From the NCBI GenBank assembly GCA_949841045.1, contig CATKXS010000005.1:650-64649 (forward strand): DNA of 64,000 bases, written 5' to 3'. The notes under the pieces are model-generated. The model ran no database searches, had not been told where the DNA came from, and saw only the letters and a program-made list of their open reading frames with translations. The translations under genes and the position numbers were made by a program. The stretch is from an uncultured Clostridia bacterium (GTDB lineage Bacteria > Bacillota > Clostridia > Christensenellales > UBA1242). Shown here piece after piece: positions 1,611 to 64,000 of the stretch. Within the stretch, counting starts at the first letter, position 1. Each line of letters opens with the position of its first letter.

Positions 1611-1637
1611 TTGACAAATTTCGGGGGGGGGTATAAT
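1611..1637 (+). promoter_or_regulatory. Sigma-A type promoter with G9 tract in the spacer
   Basis: TTGACA 1611-1616, 15-nt spacer containing G9 (1623-1631), TATAAT 1632-1637; lies about 30 nt upstream of the 1667 start. Confidence 0.6.
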
Positions 1638-24193: not shown

Positions 24194-24221
24194 TTGACAA
24201 AGCCCCCCCTCCGAGTATACT
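24194..24221 (+). promoter_or_regulatory. Sigma-A type promoter with C7 tract in the spacer
   Basis: TTGACA 24194-99, 16-nt spacer containing C7 (24203-09), TATACT 24216-21. Confidence 0.55.
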
Positions 24222-53009: not shown

Positions 53010-53786
53010 ATGAAAAAGAGAATTGATTTAATTGTAAGTGAAATGAAGGGCTTTTCAAGAAATAAAGCGCAAGAAATGATTGAAGAAGGAAATGTTTTGG
53101 TTGATGGAAAGGCTATTTTAAAGTCTTCCTTTTTAGTTGACGAGAATTGTGAGGTCACTTTTACTCAAAACAGAAGTTTTGTTTCAAGAGGGGCAAAAAA
53201 GCTATTGGGTGCAGTTGAGGTATTCAAACTTGATTTCGCTGGCAAGGTGGTACTTGATATGGGTGCTTCAACTGGAGGCTTTACGCAGGTGCTTCTTGAA
53301 AATGGTGCAAAGAAAGTTTATGCTGTTGACGTTGGCAAGGGCGAGCTCGACAAAGCTTTGCGAGAAAATGAAAGAGTTGTCAATATGGAAGGGCGTGACA
53401 TTCGCACGCTTACAATTGATGAAGTGAAAGATTGCGATATGGTAGTTGGCGACCTGTCATTTATTTCTCTTCGCCATATTTTGCCAAAAGTGAGAGAGTT
53501 GTTTGGAAAGATAGAATGTATGCTTCTTTTTAAGCCTCAGTTTGAATGCGGAAAGGATATTGCGCGAAAATATAGAGGAGTGATTAGGGATAAAAGTGTT
53601 CATAAAAATATTTTAAAAGAGTTTATAAAAGAACTTGAACTATATGATTTTGTTTTGTCAGATATATTTTATTCTCCTATAAAAGGTAAAGAGGGTAATA
53701 TTGAATATCTACTGCATTTAAATGGAAATGAAATGAAAAACATTGAAATAGACAGCGTTGTAGAGGAGGCTTTTAAGAAAATTTAA
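53010..53786 (+). CDS. tlyA: TlyA family rRNA 2'-O-methyltransferase
   Basis: MKKRIDLIV...S4 domain; SAM motif VLDMGASTGGFTQVLL; DLSFISL. Confidence 0.85.
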   Translation: MKKRIDLIVSEMKGFSRNKAQEMIEEGNVLVDGKAILKSSFLVDENCEVTFTQNRSFVSRGAKKLLGAVEVFKLDFAGKVVLDMGASTGGFTQVLLENGAKKVYAVDVGKGELDKALRENERVVNMEGRDIRTLTIDEVKDCDMVVGDLSFISLRHILPKVRELFGKIECMLLFKPQFECGKDIARKYRGVIRDKSVHKNILKEFIKELELYDFVLSDIFYSPIKGKEGNIEYLLHLNGNEMKNIEIDSVVEEAFKKI

Positions 53787-53804
53787 CTTTTTTTAGAAAA
53801 GGAC

Positions 53805-53831
53805 TTGACAAATCCCCCCCCCGATTAAAAT
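53805..53831 (+). promoter_or_regulatory. Sigma-A type promoter with C9 tract in the spacer
   Basis: TTGACA 53805-10, 15-nt spacer containing C9 (53814-22), TAAAAT 53826-31. Confidence 0.55.
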
Positions 53832-53872
53832 ATAAGTATGCGGTGGCGAGAATGCCACAAAAGGAGGGGATT

Positions 53873-54859
53873 ATGTATTGGGATAAAGGAGATATTGCTT
53901 TTTTTACTATAATGGGTACAATTGCATTGGGAACAGTTGGTGCAGTCGGAGGGCTTATTGCACATGGAATAAACGTAGGAGTTGTTAGTGCTAGCGTTGG
54001 TAACAATATTACTAAAATAGAAGAAAAGAGAAAAGAGCTCAGTAATATTGTTGCAAATAAAGCAAATATCGATAACTTTGATATTGCTTCGGTTGAACTT
54101 GCTAGAGGTGCAGAGGACAAATATTTATTTAAGGCTTTTGGCAGCACAAGTTACGAACAAATTGTAGGGCTAAAAGAAAACAAATATCTAAATGTTTTCT
54201 TTGAAATTTCACAATATGACGCAAACAAGATTATGGACAGCGTAAGAAAACTAGATGAGACCGAGAGAAGAAGAGATTTGACTTCAACTGAGCATAGTGC
54301 AATTTTAGATGAAACACAAGTAAATGAATGGAAATTTACTGAAAACGGAAGAATTGGAAAAACTACTGACGCTTGTGTAGAATTATATAACGCAATGAAC
54401 GAGGCTGTTCAAAGAGCTTATTCGTCAAAATTTGAGGAGATTTTTGAGGCAAGCAACATAAACAACGCAACTTCAAAAGTTTATAGATATATGAGACCAG
54501 AGTTTGTTGGTGACACTCATGTAAGCGGATTCTTTGCACATGGAAATACAGTTTTTGTAAATGCAGGTGTTATGACAACTAATATTTCTCAAGTTATAAA
54601 AGATGAAGAGAAAGGCATAAGTTATTTCTTAGTCGATACTTTGCAAGGTCGTGAAAATAATGGAGATATTGTTGTAGATACTTGTCGTGCAAGAGTTGAA
54701 ATTGAAGGTACAGACCTATCTCAAGAAGAGGTTTATGCTAAATTTGTAAAAGGCGAGTATTCAAGCTTTGTTGAACTGGCTCGAGAAAAAGTTGGAAGCA
54801 AGGTTAGTGTTGTAAATAATGCGCTTGCCTCTGATGTTGAAGAAATTGAACTCTTGTAG
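53873..54859 (+). CDS. N-terminally membrane-anchored protein, function unknown
   Basis: ORF-track frame 53843..54859. ATG 53873 follows AAGGAGGGG. One TM segment, then about 290 aa predicted extracytoplasmic. Confidence 0.6.
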   Translation: MYWDKGDIAFFTIMGTIALGTVGAVGGLIAHGINVGVVSASVGNNITKIEEKRKELSNIVANKANIDNFDIASVELARGAEDKYLFKAFGSTSYEQIVGLKENKYLNVFFEISQYDANKIMDSVRKLDETERRRDLTSTEHSAILDETQVNEWKFTENGRIGKTTDACVELYNAMNEAVQRAYSSKFEEIFEASNINNATSKVYRYMRPEFVGDTHVSGFFAHGNTVFVNAGVMTTNISQVIKDEEKGISYFLVDTLQGRENNGDIVVDTCRARVEIEGTDLSQEEVYAKFVKGEYSSFVELAREKVGSKVSVVNNALASDVEEIELL

Positions 54860-55027: not shown

Positions 55028-55066
55028 CAAAAAGAGCAAAAATTTATGGATTTTTGCTCTTTTTTA
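55028..55066. terminator. bidirectional Rho-independent terminator
   Basis: agagcaaaaat / atttttgctct 11-bp stem with A- and T-runs, between convergent genes. Confidence 0.8.
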
Positions 55067-56022: not shown

Positions 56023-57118
56023 ATGATTTTAGATAATGTTAAAATTAGACTTGCACAAATGAGAGATGAGATTGATTTTATAAAGGAGTGTCTTTGACAA
56101 GGGCGACCTTGAAAAGCAGTTAAAAGAGCTTCAGGCTCAGCAGTCTGAAGAAGGATTCTATCTTGACCAAGCGCGGGTTCTCGAAATTGGCAAGAAAGTC
56201 AAAAGTCTTGAAGGTAAAAAGAATTTAATCAACCTCTTAAATTGGCTCTATGATGATTGTAGGGCTTATGTTGAACTTATTGAAGAGACGCATGATACAT
56301 CGCTTGATGGGGAGGTTGAATTAAGCCTGCACAAGCTTGAAAGCGAAGTTGATAAGGCAAAAATTCAAACTCTTTTAAGAGGCAAGTATGATTCCTATGA
56401 TACGATTATGACTATCCATGCTGGCGCTGGCGGTACAGAGGCTCAGGACTGGGCTGATATGCTTTATCGAATGTACCGAATGTACTGCGAAAGTGTTGGC
56501 TACAAGCTTTCAGTTGTTGACGTGTTGAATGGTGACGAGGCGGGACTAAAATCAATTACTTTTGAGGTGAGTGGTGAAAACGCTTATGGATTTTTAAAGG
56601 CAGAAAAAGGTGTTCATAGACTTGTACGAATTTCACCTTTTGATGCAAATGCAAGAAGGCACACCTCTTTTGCAAGCGTGGAAGTTATGCCAAAGCTTGA
56701 CGAGAGTCCTAATATTGAAATCCGCTCTGAAGATTTGAAGATTGACACATATCGTTCTTCTGGCGCTGGAGGTCAGAATGTCAATAAGACCGAGAGTGCA
56801 GTAAGAATTACACATATTCCAACGGGAATAGTTGTTTCTTGTCAGGTTGAGCGTTCTCAGGTGCAAAACAAAGAAAGAGCTATGAATATGCTTTATTCTC
56901 GTCTTGCCGAAAAAGAAGAACGTGAAGAGCTTGAAAAACTTGCAAATATTCGTGGCGAAGTTAAGAAAATCGAGTGGGGAAGCCAGATTCGCAGTTATGT
57001 TTTCTGTCCTTATACGCTTGTTAAGGACCACCGTACTGGCTATGAAGACAGTAATGTCGCTTCGGTTATGGACGGAAATATTCAAGAATTCATTAACGAA
57101 TATTTAAAGAAGATTTAA
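56023..57118 (+). CDS. prfB: peptide chain release factor 2, requires programmed +1 frameshift at 56092-56098
   Basis: Frame 1 reads MILDNVKIRLAQMRDEIDFIKECL, then an in-frame TGA within CTT TGA C, preceded by AGGAG. The +1 frame continues DKGDLEKQ... into the track ORF 56408..57118, which carries SPF and GGQ (SGAGGQNVNK). Confidence 0.93.
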
Positions 57119-62707: not shown

Positions 62708-64000
62708 ATGAAAAAAATAAAAAGATTTAGTTTATATATTTTTGTAGCTCTTGTTTTAGGTTTACTTGGAACTCTTGCCCTAACCTTGCCTAATTCGGGG
62801 GGGGGCTCAGCAAAATGCTGAAGTTGGCATAGAGAAAGACTCGGCTTATGCTGCAACTACTACTGCAACTGTTTTTGGATATTATTCTAGTAGTTTAATT
62901 AATGCTGAAGAGTATCACGATGTCAATGGCAGAGGTTACCCTGAATGGTTAGGCAATTTGGCAACATTTTCAATGAGAATAGGAAGCACGACTTATTCAA
63001 TATCTGGACGAACAAACATTAGTTTGACTAGTGGGACTACATATACGTTCACTGTTTTGACAGTACCGACAGGTTATAATTTTGTAGGCTGGTGGGAAGA
63101 AGAGGACCTATCAGATGATGCAAATTCATTTTATGATTATTACCTACGCTCAACCTCGACAAGTTGTTCAATGACTGCTAAGTGGGGATATATTGACTAT
63201 TTTCCAGTTTTTGAACCTGCGGGTGCAACCTATACCATCACTGCAAACGGAAATGGTGGACGTGTAGGCAATGCAGATGATGAATGGCTACATAGTAGTG
63301 ATTATACTACCGCAACACGAAGGGTCTTTGTTGGAGATACGTATGCTGCTTTGCCTGAAGGAGGAAATCGAAGTGGATATATTTTTACAGGGTGGTATAC
63401 TTAACAATCCGCTGCCAACAGTTCAAATCCAAATTACTTGGTTTTACAAAATAAGGTTGCAACAAGCAATGCAACAATTTATGCAGGCTGGAAATCAGTA
63501 GGTAGTACTAACTATATCCGTACCATATTAGTGTACAGGCAGACACTTCCAATTACATATTCTAATGGTTGGTATCAAACTCTTTATGATGAATATTATT
63601 ATAAATATTTTGTTTCAGGTTCAAATTGGAATATTCCAACTACAAATTCTGGCTATGACGTAACATATAATACCAACATAAATGGTACAGGCTCTCAAGT
63701 CACCACAGGTACAACTGTGACTTCAAATACCTATTTCGCTTATGCACAAGTCAACGCGAAACAATTTACTATTACATATCATAGTAATTATGGAAGTGAT
63801 GAGACTAAAACTCAAGGCGTTGTTTATGATACACCTTTGAATATTCGAGAAGGTTTGTCTAGGCCGGGCTATACTTTTTTAGGTTGGGGGAAATCTTCCA
63901 TTCAAACTAGTCCAACTTATACCGCAGGACAATCTGTCACAAATCCATTTGGTGCAAGCGGTGGAGACCTTTATGCAATATGGAGTGCGAACTCCTACAC
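62708..64000 (+). pseudogene. large secreted Listeria-Bacteroides-repeat (GY.F.GW) surface protein; out of frame at a G9 tract, with an in-frame TAA; continues past the window end
   Basis: Signal peptide MKKIKRFSLYIFVALVLGLLGTLALTLPNSGGG is followed by G9 (62797-805) and a stop at 62819. The +1 frame is open from 62805 through the track ORF 62958..63404. After TAA (63402-04) the same frame stays open to 64000. Repeats GYNFVGW, GYIFTGW and GYTFLGW are present. Confidence 0.7.

What the first reader, a model, noticed from the sequence alone, without database searches (positions are those of the whole stretch)
53805..53831. C9 homopolymer inside a third promoter spacer (TTGACA-N15-TAAAAT)
TTGACAAAT is followed by C9 (53814-22), GAT and TAAAAT. 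It lies upstream of a membrane-anchored 328-aa protein of unknown function (53873-54859). Three independent G/C tracts of 7-9 nt fall in promoter spacers of envelope-protein genes. A fourth lies in a surface-protein ORF. In a genome where G/C runs are otherwise rare, this is unlikely to be chance. It suggests a coordinated set of phase-variable envelope loci (a phasome), which as far as I know is not a described feature of spore-forming Firmicutes.
Basis: partly seen in the sequence, partly recalled or inferred. Interest (0 to 1): 0.62.

Follow-up and report, generated by a model that had tools for sequence, protein, structure and literature searches.

The report
Poly-C promoter switch in gut Clostridia
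A run of nine C's inside the promoter of a membrane-protein gene is one of about 30 such G/C runs placed non-randomly in a tiny mouse-gut Clostridia genome, mostly in promoters of surface-protein genes, which marks a mutation-driven switch set of a kind well known in pathogens but apparently not yet described in this bacterial group.

Summary

The requested census strongly supports non-randomness. G/C runs in the 1.16-Mb genome number 12, 2, 5, 22 and 2 for lengths 6 to 10. An order-3 Markov model expects about 0 of length 9. Of 31 tracts of 7 or more, 19-20 lie between a -35 and a -10 box. Their genes are enriched for N-terminal membrane or signal segments (14 of 19 against 22%, p = 3e-6).

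Ordinary promoters here prefer 17-nt spacers, while tract promoters have 14-16, so the consensus state is probably low or off.

This C9 itself is unchanged in all five samples, and four other promoter tracts are also unchanged in length. Tract length does change elsewhere:
- Two in-ORF tracts toggle C9/C10, and so the reading frame, between near-identical samples.
- A homologous promoter in a sister species is C8 or C9 between strains 99.6% identical.
- Cassette copies with identical flanks differ only in tract length.

Mismatch repair is intact. The verdict is a real slipped-strand phasome, a new member of a known kind. Switching at this locus is inferred, not shown.

The parts
53778..53804 (+). 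A/T-rich upstream part of the ~45-nt promoter cassette (AAAATTTAACTTTTTTTAGAAAAGGAC). It overlaps the stop codon (53784-53786) of the upstream FtsJ/S4 (TlyA-like) methyltransferase gene.
   Evidence: Alignment of the eight type-A promoter copies of the genome shows similarity confined to this run, the -35 box, the tract and the -10 box.
53805..53810 (+). -35 hexamer TTGACA (consensus)
53811..53825 (+). 15-nt spacer AAT-C9-GAT. The C9 homopolymer is at 53814-53822.
   Evidence: The genome's ordinary promoters prefer a 17-nt spacer. C9 is seen in runs X1, X3, X4, X5 and X8.
53826..53831 (+). -10 hexamer TAAAAT (5 of 6 match to TATAAT, with T1, A2 and T6 kept)
53838..53872 (+). Inferred 5' leader with a small hairpin (53843-53847 pairs with 53854-53858, GTGGC/GCCAC) and the ribosome-binding site AGGAGG (53862-53867)
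   Evidence: The hairpin is not significant on its own (z = -1.3). A similar hairpin sits in the leader of the paralogous promoter at C10:31586.
53873..54859 (+). Gene for a 328-aa single-pass membrane-anchored protein of a small, unnamed, lineage-restricted family
   Evidence: no Pfam hit; 14 clusters among 5.8 billion proteins; no PDB fold match.
55029..55064 (+). Terminator-like hairpin closing the monocistronic unit
1611..1637 (+). Sister switch TTGACA-AATTTC-G9-TATAAT (15-nt spacer) upstream of a 131-aa membrane protein
24194..24221 (+). Sister switch TTGACA-AAG-C7-TCCGAG-TATACT (16-nt spacer) upstream of a 182-aa two-TM protein with an acidic tail
62797..62805 (+). G9 tract just after the signal peptide of a Listeria-Bacteroides-repeat surface protein gene. 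It is out of frame at G9 and would need G8 or G11. Its paralogues at C7:1532 and C13:1146 toggle C9/C10 between samples.
   Evidence: frames read by me; G9 also in X1.

Best explanation
The C9 run is the variable element of a slipped-strand promoter switch, or 'dimmer'. It sits between a consensus -35 box and a good -10 box and sets their distance. At C9 the spacer is 15 nt, two short of the 17 nt that this genome's ordinary promoters prefer. So in the consensus state the gene for the membrane-anchored 328-aa protein is probably transcribed weakly or not at all. Gain of one or two C's by replication slippage would bring the spacer to 16-17 nt and raise transcription in a minority of cells.

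The locus is one of about 20 such tract promoters, built from compact ~45-nt cassettes, and about 10 in-ORF tracts in a 1.16-Mb genome. Together they form a set of independent contingency loci (a phasome) that diversifies the cell surface.

Nine is the resting length. The likely reason is that slippage favours insertions below about 9 and deletions above it, as measured in Campylobacter. Mismatch repair is intact, so switching is probably slower than in Campylobacter.

Shown here: the anatomy, the non-random census, the envelope enrichment, the short spacers, and length changes at related tracts. Inferred: the effect on transcription, switching at this particular locus, the switching rate, and the adaptive role.
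For: Anatomy of the locus.

Census: 22 of 31 long G/C runs are exactly 9, and intermediate runs are depleted relative to Markov expectation.

Placement: 19-20 of 31 tracts lie in -35/-10 spacers, in both orientations, C or G on the sense strand.

Gene content: 14 of 19 downstream proteins have an N-terminal hydrophobic segment against 22% of the background, odds ratio 10, p = 2.7e-6. They include Listeria-Bacteroides-repeat surface proteins and a lipoprotein.

Spacer lengths: ordinary promoters peak sharply at 17 nt (168 hits against 30-60 at other lengths), while tract promoters are at 14-16. Across the genus, 101 tract promoters have a tract mode of 9 and spacers of 15 (43), 16 (33) and 17 (10).

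Length changes:
- C13:1146 is C10 in the window genome and in X3, but C9 in X1 and X6.
- C7:1532 is C10 in the window genome but C9 in X1, X3, X5 and X6. In both cases the change toggles the reading frame (frames read).
- In the same gene family in a sister species, the promoter TTGACAATT-Cn-ATGTATAAT is C8 in three assemblies and C9 in a fourth that is 99.6% identical. This is the only net indel in 5.6 kb.
- Cassette copies with identical flanks differ only in n: G010 has n = 7, 8, 9 giving spacers 15, 16, 17. G003, G028, G062 and G000 show the same kind of difference.

Conservation: homologous genes in other species carry the same design.

Precedent for a mode of nine and for length-dependent insertion/deletion bias: PMC3401435.
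Against: At this locus every spanning contig from five runs has C9, including a strain about 1% diverged.

Four other promoter tracts of this genome also kept their consensus length between strains: C16:16792, C10:31586, C13:15161 and window 53814. One further tract (C10:48538) was broken by substitutions and was not resized.

Only assembler contigs at 2-10x depth were available, so minority length variants could not be seen either way.

MutS and MutL are intact, which should lower slippage rates.

No tract promoter of this genome is at 17 nt. The sharp mode at 9, conserved across species, could also reflect selection for a fixed length.

There are no expression data.

A published caution applies: the T-tract beside the Mycoplasma agalactiae vpma promoter turned out not to be a switch (PMC2268961).
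Confidence: 0.72

Rival explanations
1. The G:C block is a fixed-length functional element and not a switch. Nine G:C pairs in a 15-16-nt spacer would define a special promoter class, for example one dependent on DNA relaxation or on an unknown factor that recognises the rigid block. That class would form a co-regulated set of surface genes, and selection would hold the length at 9.
For: There is a very sharp mode at 9, both in this genome (22 of 31) and across the genus (63 of 101). Consensus length is unchanged at five promoter tracts between strains 1-2% apart. Spacers are systematically 15-16 nt and not 17. The cassette flanks are shared. MMR is intact.
Against: The tract occurs in both orientations and with many different flanks, which argues against a sequence-specific protein site. 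Copies with identical flanks carry 7, 8, 9, 10 or 11 repeats. A strain-level C8/C9 change exists in a homologous promoter. The same tract type inside ORFs flips reading frames between samples. A homopolymer is the most mutable way to fill a spacer, and a mode of 9 is explained by mutational bias in Campylobacter.
Confidence: 0.15
2. The tracts are a neutral by-product. A portable ~45-nt promoter cassette that happens to contain a G/C run has spread by duplication or recombination, and slippage at it has no adaptive role.
For: Similarity among copies is limited to a compact cassette in front of unrelated genes. G010 has 13 copies of one cassette. The trait is patchy across the genus: 0-2 against 40-75 overlapping C8 matches per genome.
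Against: Several unrelated cassette types carry the tract in either orientation, and independent in-ORF tracts exist. There is strong enrichment for envelope genes. G/C runs of 6-7 are depleted elsewhere. The design is conserved on homologous genes across species at 38-44% protein identity.
Confidence: 0.1
3. The tract is a sequencing or assembly artefact.
For: Homopolymers are error-prone. The genome is a metagenome-assembled draft of 34 contigs.
Against: The same C9 appears in independent contigs from five runs of three studies. The same design appears in dozens of other species' genomes and in ENA, NCBI and Logan assemblies.
Confidence: 0.01

Closest known systems
Neisseria meningitidis porA (poly-G), opc and fetA (poly-C) promoter-spacer phase variation
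   Same: A G/C homopolymer lies between the -35 and -10 boxes of a surface-protein gene, and tract length sets the spacing and so graded expression. The organism is MMR-proficient, and many loci per genome are intergenic. Sources: PMC13742949 for opc, PMC5953494 for fetA C(10-14) intergenic, and my own knowledge for porA.
   Different: Here the host is a Gram-positive-lineage, Spo0A-bearing, reduced-genome gut commensal. Tracts are shorter (mode 9 against 10-14). About 20 promoters share compact cassettes. The consensus spacers are nearly all sub-optimal. No expression data exist.
Mycoplasma hyorhinis vlp (also M. arthritidis maa2 and M. mycoides vmm) promoter-spacer switches
   Same: Indels in the -35/-10 spacer turn transcription on or off (PMC2268961). 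There are multiple paralogous surface-protein genes, each with its own tract promoter. The genome is small, low in GC and related to Firmicutes. Tandem arrays exist, for example the G028 locus with one tract promoter per paralogue.
   Different: The Mycoplasma tracts are poly-A or TA repeats and the products are lipoproteins of wall-less cells. Here the tracts are poly-G/C, and the products are signal-peptide, TM-anchored and Listeria-Bacteroides-repeat proteins.
Campylobacter jejuni polyG/C phasome
   Same: The genome is small and low in GC, with about 30 polyG/C tracts of 7 or more and a modal length of nine. Combinatorial ON/OFF states differ between populations (PMC3401435; PMC4965091 abstract).
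   Different: C. jejuni tracts are mostly inside reading frames and the species lacks MutS/MutL repair. Here about two thirds are in promoter spacers, and MutS and MutL are intact.
Treponema pallidum poly-G tracts in tpr and tp0126 promoters
   Same: A poly-G tract in or near promoters of candidate surface-protein genes modulates transcription (PMC7864442 appeared in the hit list but I did not read it; the details are from my own knowledge).
   Different: There are fewer loci, in a spirochaete pathogen, and no shared cassette is known.

Membership tests
Promoter-spacer homopolymer phase variation (porA/opc/vlp type) | The homopolymer lies between the -35 and -10 hexamers of the promoter that drives the gene | tested here: met
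   TTGACA-AAT-C9-GAT-TAAAAT lies 41 nt upstream of the ATG. There is no alternative strong promoter, and the unit is monocistronic with a terminator. The transcription start site was not mapped.
Promoter-spacer homopolymer phase variation (porA/opc/vlp type) | The tract is longer and more frequent than base composition predicts | tested here: met
   22 runs of 9 against about 0 expected, and 29 runs of 8 or more against about 1.3 expected under an order-3 Markov model.
Promoter-spacer homopolymer phase variation (porA/opc/vlp type) | Tract length varies between closely related cells or strains at the locus | tested here: inconclusive
   At this locus C9 is seen in all five runs, but only consensus contigs at 2-10x depth were available. 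The feature is met at a homologous promoter in a sister species (C8 against C9 at 99.6% identity) and among cassette copies with identical flanks.
Promoter-spacer homopolymer phase variation (porA/opc/vlp type) | Length changes alter transcription | not testable with these tools
   This is only indirect: the genome's own promoters prefer 17-nt spacers, while the tract promoters sit at 14-16.
Promoter-spacer homopolymer phase variation (porA/opc/vlp type) | Switching is reversible and high-frequency (well above the background mutation rate) | not testable with these tools
   This needs clonal lineages or deep reads. No raw-read runs were available.
Phasome (multi-locus SSR contingency set, as in Campylobacter and Neisseria) | Many independent SSR loci per genome | tested here: met
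   There are 31 tracts of 7 or more: 19-20 in promoter spacers, 10 in ORFs and 1 other.
Phasome (multi-locus SSR contingency set, as in Campylobacter and Neisseria) | The loci are enriched in surface or envelope functions | tested here: met
   14 of 19 against 22% with an N-terminal hydrophobic segment, p = 2.7e-6. PF09479 repeat surface proteins and a lipoprotein are among them. Five of the 19 look cytoplasmic.
Phasome (multi-locus SSR contingency set, as in Campylobacter and Neisseria) | Different ON/OFF combinations occur in different populations of one strain | tested here: met
   The window genome has C7:1532 in frame and C13:1146 out of frame. X1 and X6 have the reverse. X3 has both out of frame. 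This is shown for two in-ORF loci only.
Campylobacter-type hypermutable polyG (MMR-deficient) | Absence of MutS/MutL mismatch repair | tested here: not met
   MutS_I (870-aa frame) and MutL (652-aa frame) are intact in this genome and in 35 of 36 genus relatives.

The most novel reading that the evidence does not exclude
The tract promoters are more than independent switches. They would form a lineage-wide, cassette-borne 'default-off' surface regulon. A portable ~45-nt module (A/T run, -35 box, G/C9 tract, -10 box) would be placed in front of fast-evolving envelope genes across a clade of reduced-genome gut Clostridia. Its 15-16-nt spacing would make all ~20 genes jointly dependent on a shared condition, such as DNA relaxation or a factor that reads the rigid G:C block. 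Slippage around a mutational attractor of nine would add per-locus randomness. This would be a two-layer control of antigenic repertoire that evolved convergently with Mycoplasma, but in Spo0A-bearing, MMR-proficient bacteria.
Probability: 0.15. Interest if true: 0.75.

Novelty: new member of a known kind. Interest (0 to 1): 0.55.

Why it matters
Slipped-strand phase variation is textbook biology for a handful of pathogens such as Neisseria, Haemophilus, Campylobacter, Helicobacter and Mycoplasma. Work on the gut microbiome has concentrated on invertible promoters instead.

A dense phasome dominated by promoter tracts in uncultured, reduced-genome commensal Clostridia of the mouse gut would have three consequences:
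- These organisms would randomise their surface, probably against IgA or phages, by a route that inverton-finding tools miss.
- Consensus MAG sequences would understate their expressed repertoire.
- Homopolymer length calls at these sites would carry biological signal.

The locus also offers a natural series of spacers from 14 to 17 nt, and an intact-MMR setting, for testing whether a G9 mutational attractor is general.

Tried and rejected
1. Loss of mismatch repair as the cause of the tracts: rejected. MutS and MutL are intact in tract-rich and tract-poor species alike.
2. Exact-protein look-ups for the 328-aa and 338-aa product and for the two other window genes behind tract promoters: nothing on record.
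3. Pattern scans of genome contigs and metagenome contigs for this promoter type: one other species with C9 (L020) and one irrelevant non-homopolymer hit (L021).
4. Orthologues of the C16 lipoprotein, to follow one promoter across species: no close orthologues exist.
5. Function of the 328-aa protein: no Pfam hit. The AF2 model has pLDDT 72.6 and no significant PDB match. NTF2/VirB8-like hits at probability 0.2 or less were not accepted.
6. The leader hairpin as a regulatory element: not significant.
No raw-read or deep runs were found.
8. Order-5 Markov null: discarded, because the tracts themselves inflate it.
9. The idea that a G:C tract could shift the optimal spacing to 15-16 nt: considered from general knowledge of helical repeat and judged too small an effect. 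It was not tested.

Full report
OBSERVATION. The sequence is exactly as described. TTGACA lies at 53805-53810, followed by AAT, C9 at 53814-53822, GAT, and TAAAAT at 53826-53831, so the spacer is 15 nt. An AGGAGG ribosome-binding site (53862-53867) precedes the ATG at 53873. The 328-codon ORF ends at 54859 and is followed by a terminator-like hairpin at 55029-55064. A standard scan with 16-18-nt spacers finds no other strong + strand promoter upstream. The unit is therefore monocistronic and depends on the tract promoter. The window is C5:650-64649 of a 1.16-Mb, 34-contig draft genome with 33.8% GC, rated 95% complete.

CENSUS.
- G/C homopolymers decay geometrically up to length 5 (171 runs) and nearly vanish at 6-7 (12 and 2). 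They reappear at 8 (5 runs), 9 (22) and 10 (2).
- An order-3 Markov model of the genome predicts about 35 runs of 6, about 6 of 7, about 1 of 8 and essentially none of 9. Intermediate runs are therefore depleted and 9-mers hugely enriched.
- Of the 31 tracts of 7 or more, 19 lie between a TTGAC(A/T)-type -35 box and a TAnnnT -10 box facing a gene that has a ribosome-binding site. One more (C28:2019) is a cassette copy that has lost its -10 box. Ten lie inside ORFs and one is otherwise intergenic.
- The tract can be C or G on the sense strand. Typical forms are TTGACAAAT-C9-GATTAAAAT and TTGACTTTTTTC-G9-TAAAAT.
- Fourteen of the 19 downstream products have an N-terminal hydrophobic segment, against 22% of 884 crudely called genes (odds ratio 10, p = 2.7e-6). 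They include Listeria-Bacteroides-repeat (PF09479) surface proteins, a lipoprotein and several small membrane proteins. Five look cytoplasmic, for example a DUF4116 protein.

SPACING. Promoter-like TTGACA/TATAAT pairs without a tract show a sharp preference for a 17-nt spacer in this genome: 168 hits, against 30-60 at every other length and about 20 in a reversed-sequence control. Tract promoters have 14, 15 or 16 nt and none has 17. Across about 40 species of the genus I collected 101 tract promoters.
- Tract lengths are 7 (6 cases), 8 (27), 9 (63), 10 (4) and 11 (1).
- Spacer lengths are 15 (43 cases), 16 (33), 17 (10) and 14 (5).
The assembled, majority state of these promoters is thus typically one or two bases short of the local optimum. 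I read this as a default low or off state (inference).

CASSETTES. Alignment of the copies within the genome shows similarity only over about 45 nt: an A/T-rich run, the -35 box, the tract and the -10 box. Upstream sequences and the genes behind them are unrelated. At the locus in question this module overlaps the stop codon of the upstream FtsJ/S4 methyltransferase gene.

DOES THE LENGTH CHANGE? Only assembler contigs of public runs at 2-10x depth were available, so only majority states can be compared.

At this locus the answer is no.
- C9 is seen in spanning contigs from X1, X3, X4, X5 and X8. X3 and X4 carry a strain about 1% diverged.
- Four further tracts are also unchanged between the two strains: the promoter tracts C16:16792 (G9), C10:31586 (C8) and C13:15161 (G9), and the in-ORF G9 at window 62797.
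- C10:48538 (C8) is replaced in the other strain by C5-G-T-C, with the spacing kept.

Elsewhere the answer is yes.
- C13:1146 is C10 in the window genome and in X3, but C9 in X1 and in X6. The X6 contigs are otherwise identical to the window genome.
- C7:1532 is C10 in the window genome, but C9 in X1, X3, X5 and X6.
- Reading the frames, C7 is in frame at 10 and C13 is in frame at 9. The window genome is therefore C7-on and C13-off, X1 and X6 are the reverse, and X3 has both off. That is combinatorial switching of paralogous surface proteins.
- For promoter tracts, the best evidence comes from the same gene family in a sister species. In a tandem array of paralogues, each has its own TTGACAATT-Cn-ATGTATAAT promoter. 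The first promoter is C8 in three assemblies and C9 in a fourth that is 99.6% identical over 5.6 kb. The tract is the only net indel.
- Within single genomes, cassette copies with identical flanks differ only in n. G010 has TTGACAAAAAGGGC-Gn-TAAAAT with n = 7 (3 copies), 8 (6) and 9 (3), giving spacers of 15, 16 and 17. G003 has n = 8, 8, 9. G028 has 8, 9, 9. G062 has 9, 9, 10. G000 has 8, 9.

WHY NINE? MutS and MutL are intact here and in nearly all relatives, whether tract-rich or tract-poor. So the Campylobacter explanation, absence of mismatch repair, does not apply. Campylobacter jejuni also has a modal tract length of nine. There, measured slippage favours insertions at G8/G9 and deletions at G10/G11, so length is set by 'molecular drivers' (PMC3401435). 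The two variable tracts I found were the only C10 tracts of this genome, and both alternate with C9, which fits such an attractor. With repair intact, rates are probably lower than in Campylobacter. That would fit the stable consensus lengths, but it is an inference.

THE GENE. The 328-aa product has no Pfam domain. It has only 14 related clusters among 5.8 billion proteins, none of them named. The family has one TM helix followed by a conserved domain of about 270 aa with an invariant QEEVYA.F motif. Some members carry N-terminal ankyrin repeats before the helix. The AlphaFold model (pLDDT 72.6) is alpha+beta and matches nothing in the PDB. The best hits are NTF2/VirB8-like at probability 0.2 or less. 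The gene occurs in only 5 of 37 genus genomes. Homologues in G014 and G028 carry C8 or C9 promoters. The ankyrin-bearing homologue P0003 has an ordinary 17-nt spacer without a tract. The function remains unknown. It is a fast-evolving accessory envelope protein, typical cargo for a contingency locus.

DISTRIBUTION. The organism is an uncultured mouse-gut Clostridia lineage with 0.7-1.3-Mb genomes. The only other species-level hit for the exact promoter is a mouse-gut MAG labelled 'uncultured Eubacteriales'. Spo0A is present, but sporulation itself was not tested. Tract abundance is patchy within the genus, from 0-2 to 40-75 overlapping C8 matches per genome. Tracts also occur in some other families of the order.

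MECHANISM AND RIVALS. My best explanation (confidence 0.72) is a slipped-strand promoter dimmer, one member of a phasome of about 30 loci. I considered three rivals.
- A fixed-length G:C block defining a special, co-regulated promoter class (0.15). The sharp mode at 9 and the stable consensus favour it. Both orientations, diverse flanks and the documented length changes count against it.
- Neutral hitch-hiking in a spreading promoter cassette (0.10).
- An artefact (0.01), refuted by independent assemblies.

COMPARISON AND NOVELTY. The mechanism is that of Neisseria porA, opc and fetA, and of Mycoplasma vlp, maa2 and vmm. The genome-wide pattern resembles the C. jejuni phasome. Each feature is individually known, so I file it as a new member of a known kind. 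Full-text searches found no description of an SSR phasome in Clostridia or other gut Firmicutes. Earlier notes of this scan report similar tract promoters in other uncultured gut Firmicutes. Those notes are unchecked leads, but they suggest the phenomenon is widespread and not unique to this genome.

LIMITS. There are no raw reads and no expression data. The evidence for switching at 53814-53822 itself is by analogy with sister loci. Gene calls for the enrichment test were crude.

Noticed in passing
G000 contigs C7:1532-1541 and C13:1146-1155 (loci L019, L018): Two paralogous Listeria-Bacteroides-repeat surface-protein genes carry a G tract just after the signal peptide and show reciprocal frame states between samples. 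The window genome has C7 on and C13 off, X1 and X6 have C7 off and C13 on, and X3 has both off.
   Followed up: partly
L011 18539-18546 (G000 C10:48538-48545): In the 1-2% diverged strain of study P1, the C8 promoter tract is replaced by C5-G-T-C with the spacer length kept. This is a natural 'locked' allele and could serve as a control for slippage and expression tests.
   Followed up: no
whole genome G000: G/C runs of 6 and 7 are about three-fold rarer than an order-3 Markov model predicts (12 against ~35, and 2 against ~6). This suggests selection against accidental slippery runs outside the switch loci.
   Followed up: no
L026-L034 (P0003 homologue, another species): The ankyrin-bearing homologue has an ordinary 17-nt spacer that is unusually G/T-rich (ACTGTGGTGGGTGATGA), possibly a decayed G tract. 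Eight of nine independent assemblies break 99-210 nt upstream of the gene, and L026 differs from the others upstream of about -75, which hints at a variable or repeated element there.
   Followed up: no
G000 C28:1760-1768 and C28:2019-2027 (locus L014): Two copies of the same G9 promoter cassette lie 259 nt apart. The second has TAGCGC in place of the -10 box and no gene behind it, so it looks like a recombination remnant.
   Followed up: no
G000 C1:21256-21564, C15:32925-33230, C11:28720-29010: Besides a full-length Spo0A frame (249 aa) there are two short frames (143 and 147 aa) that match only the Spo0A C-terminal DNA-binding domain.
   Followed up: no
window 56408-57118: The RF2 (prfB) frame starts at PCRF profile position 104, and the upstream part must lie in another frame. 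This is consistent with the classical programmed +1 frameshift of prfB.
   Followed up: no
genome G035 (same genus): There are 51 overlapping C8 matches on one strand and none on the other, unlike every other genome. This may be one very long C run or a strand-biased set.
   Followed up: no
window 53843-53858 and L011 1616-1631: The leaders of two paralogous type-A promoters share a small GTGGC-N6-GCCAC hairpin just upstream of the ribosome-binding site. It is not statistically significant on its own.
   Followed up: partly
genus g1: Tract-rich and tract-poor species coexist in one genus, with intact MutS and MutL in both. What determines gain or loss of the phasome is unexplained.
   Followed up: partly
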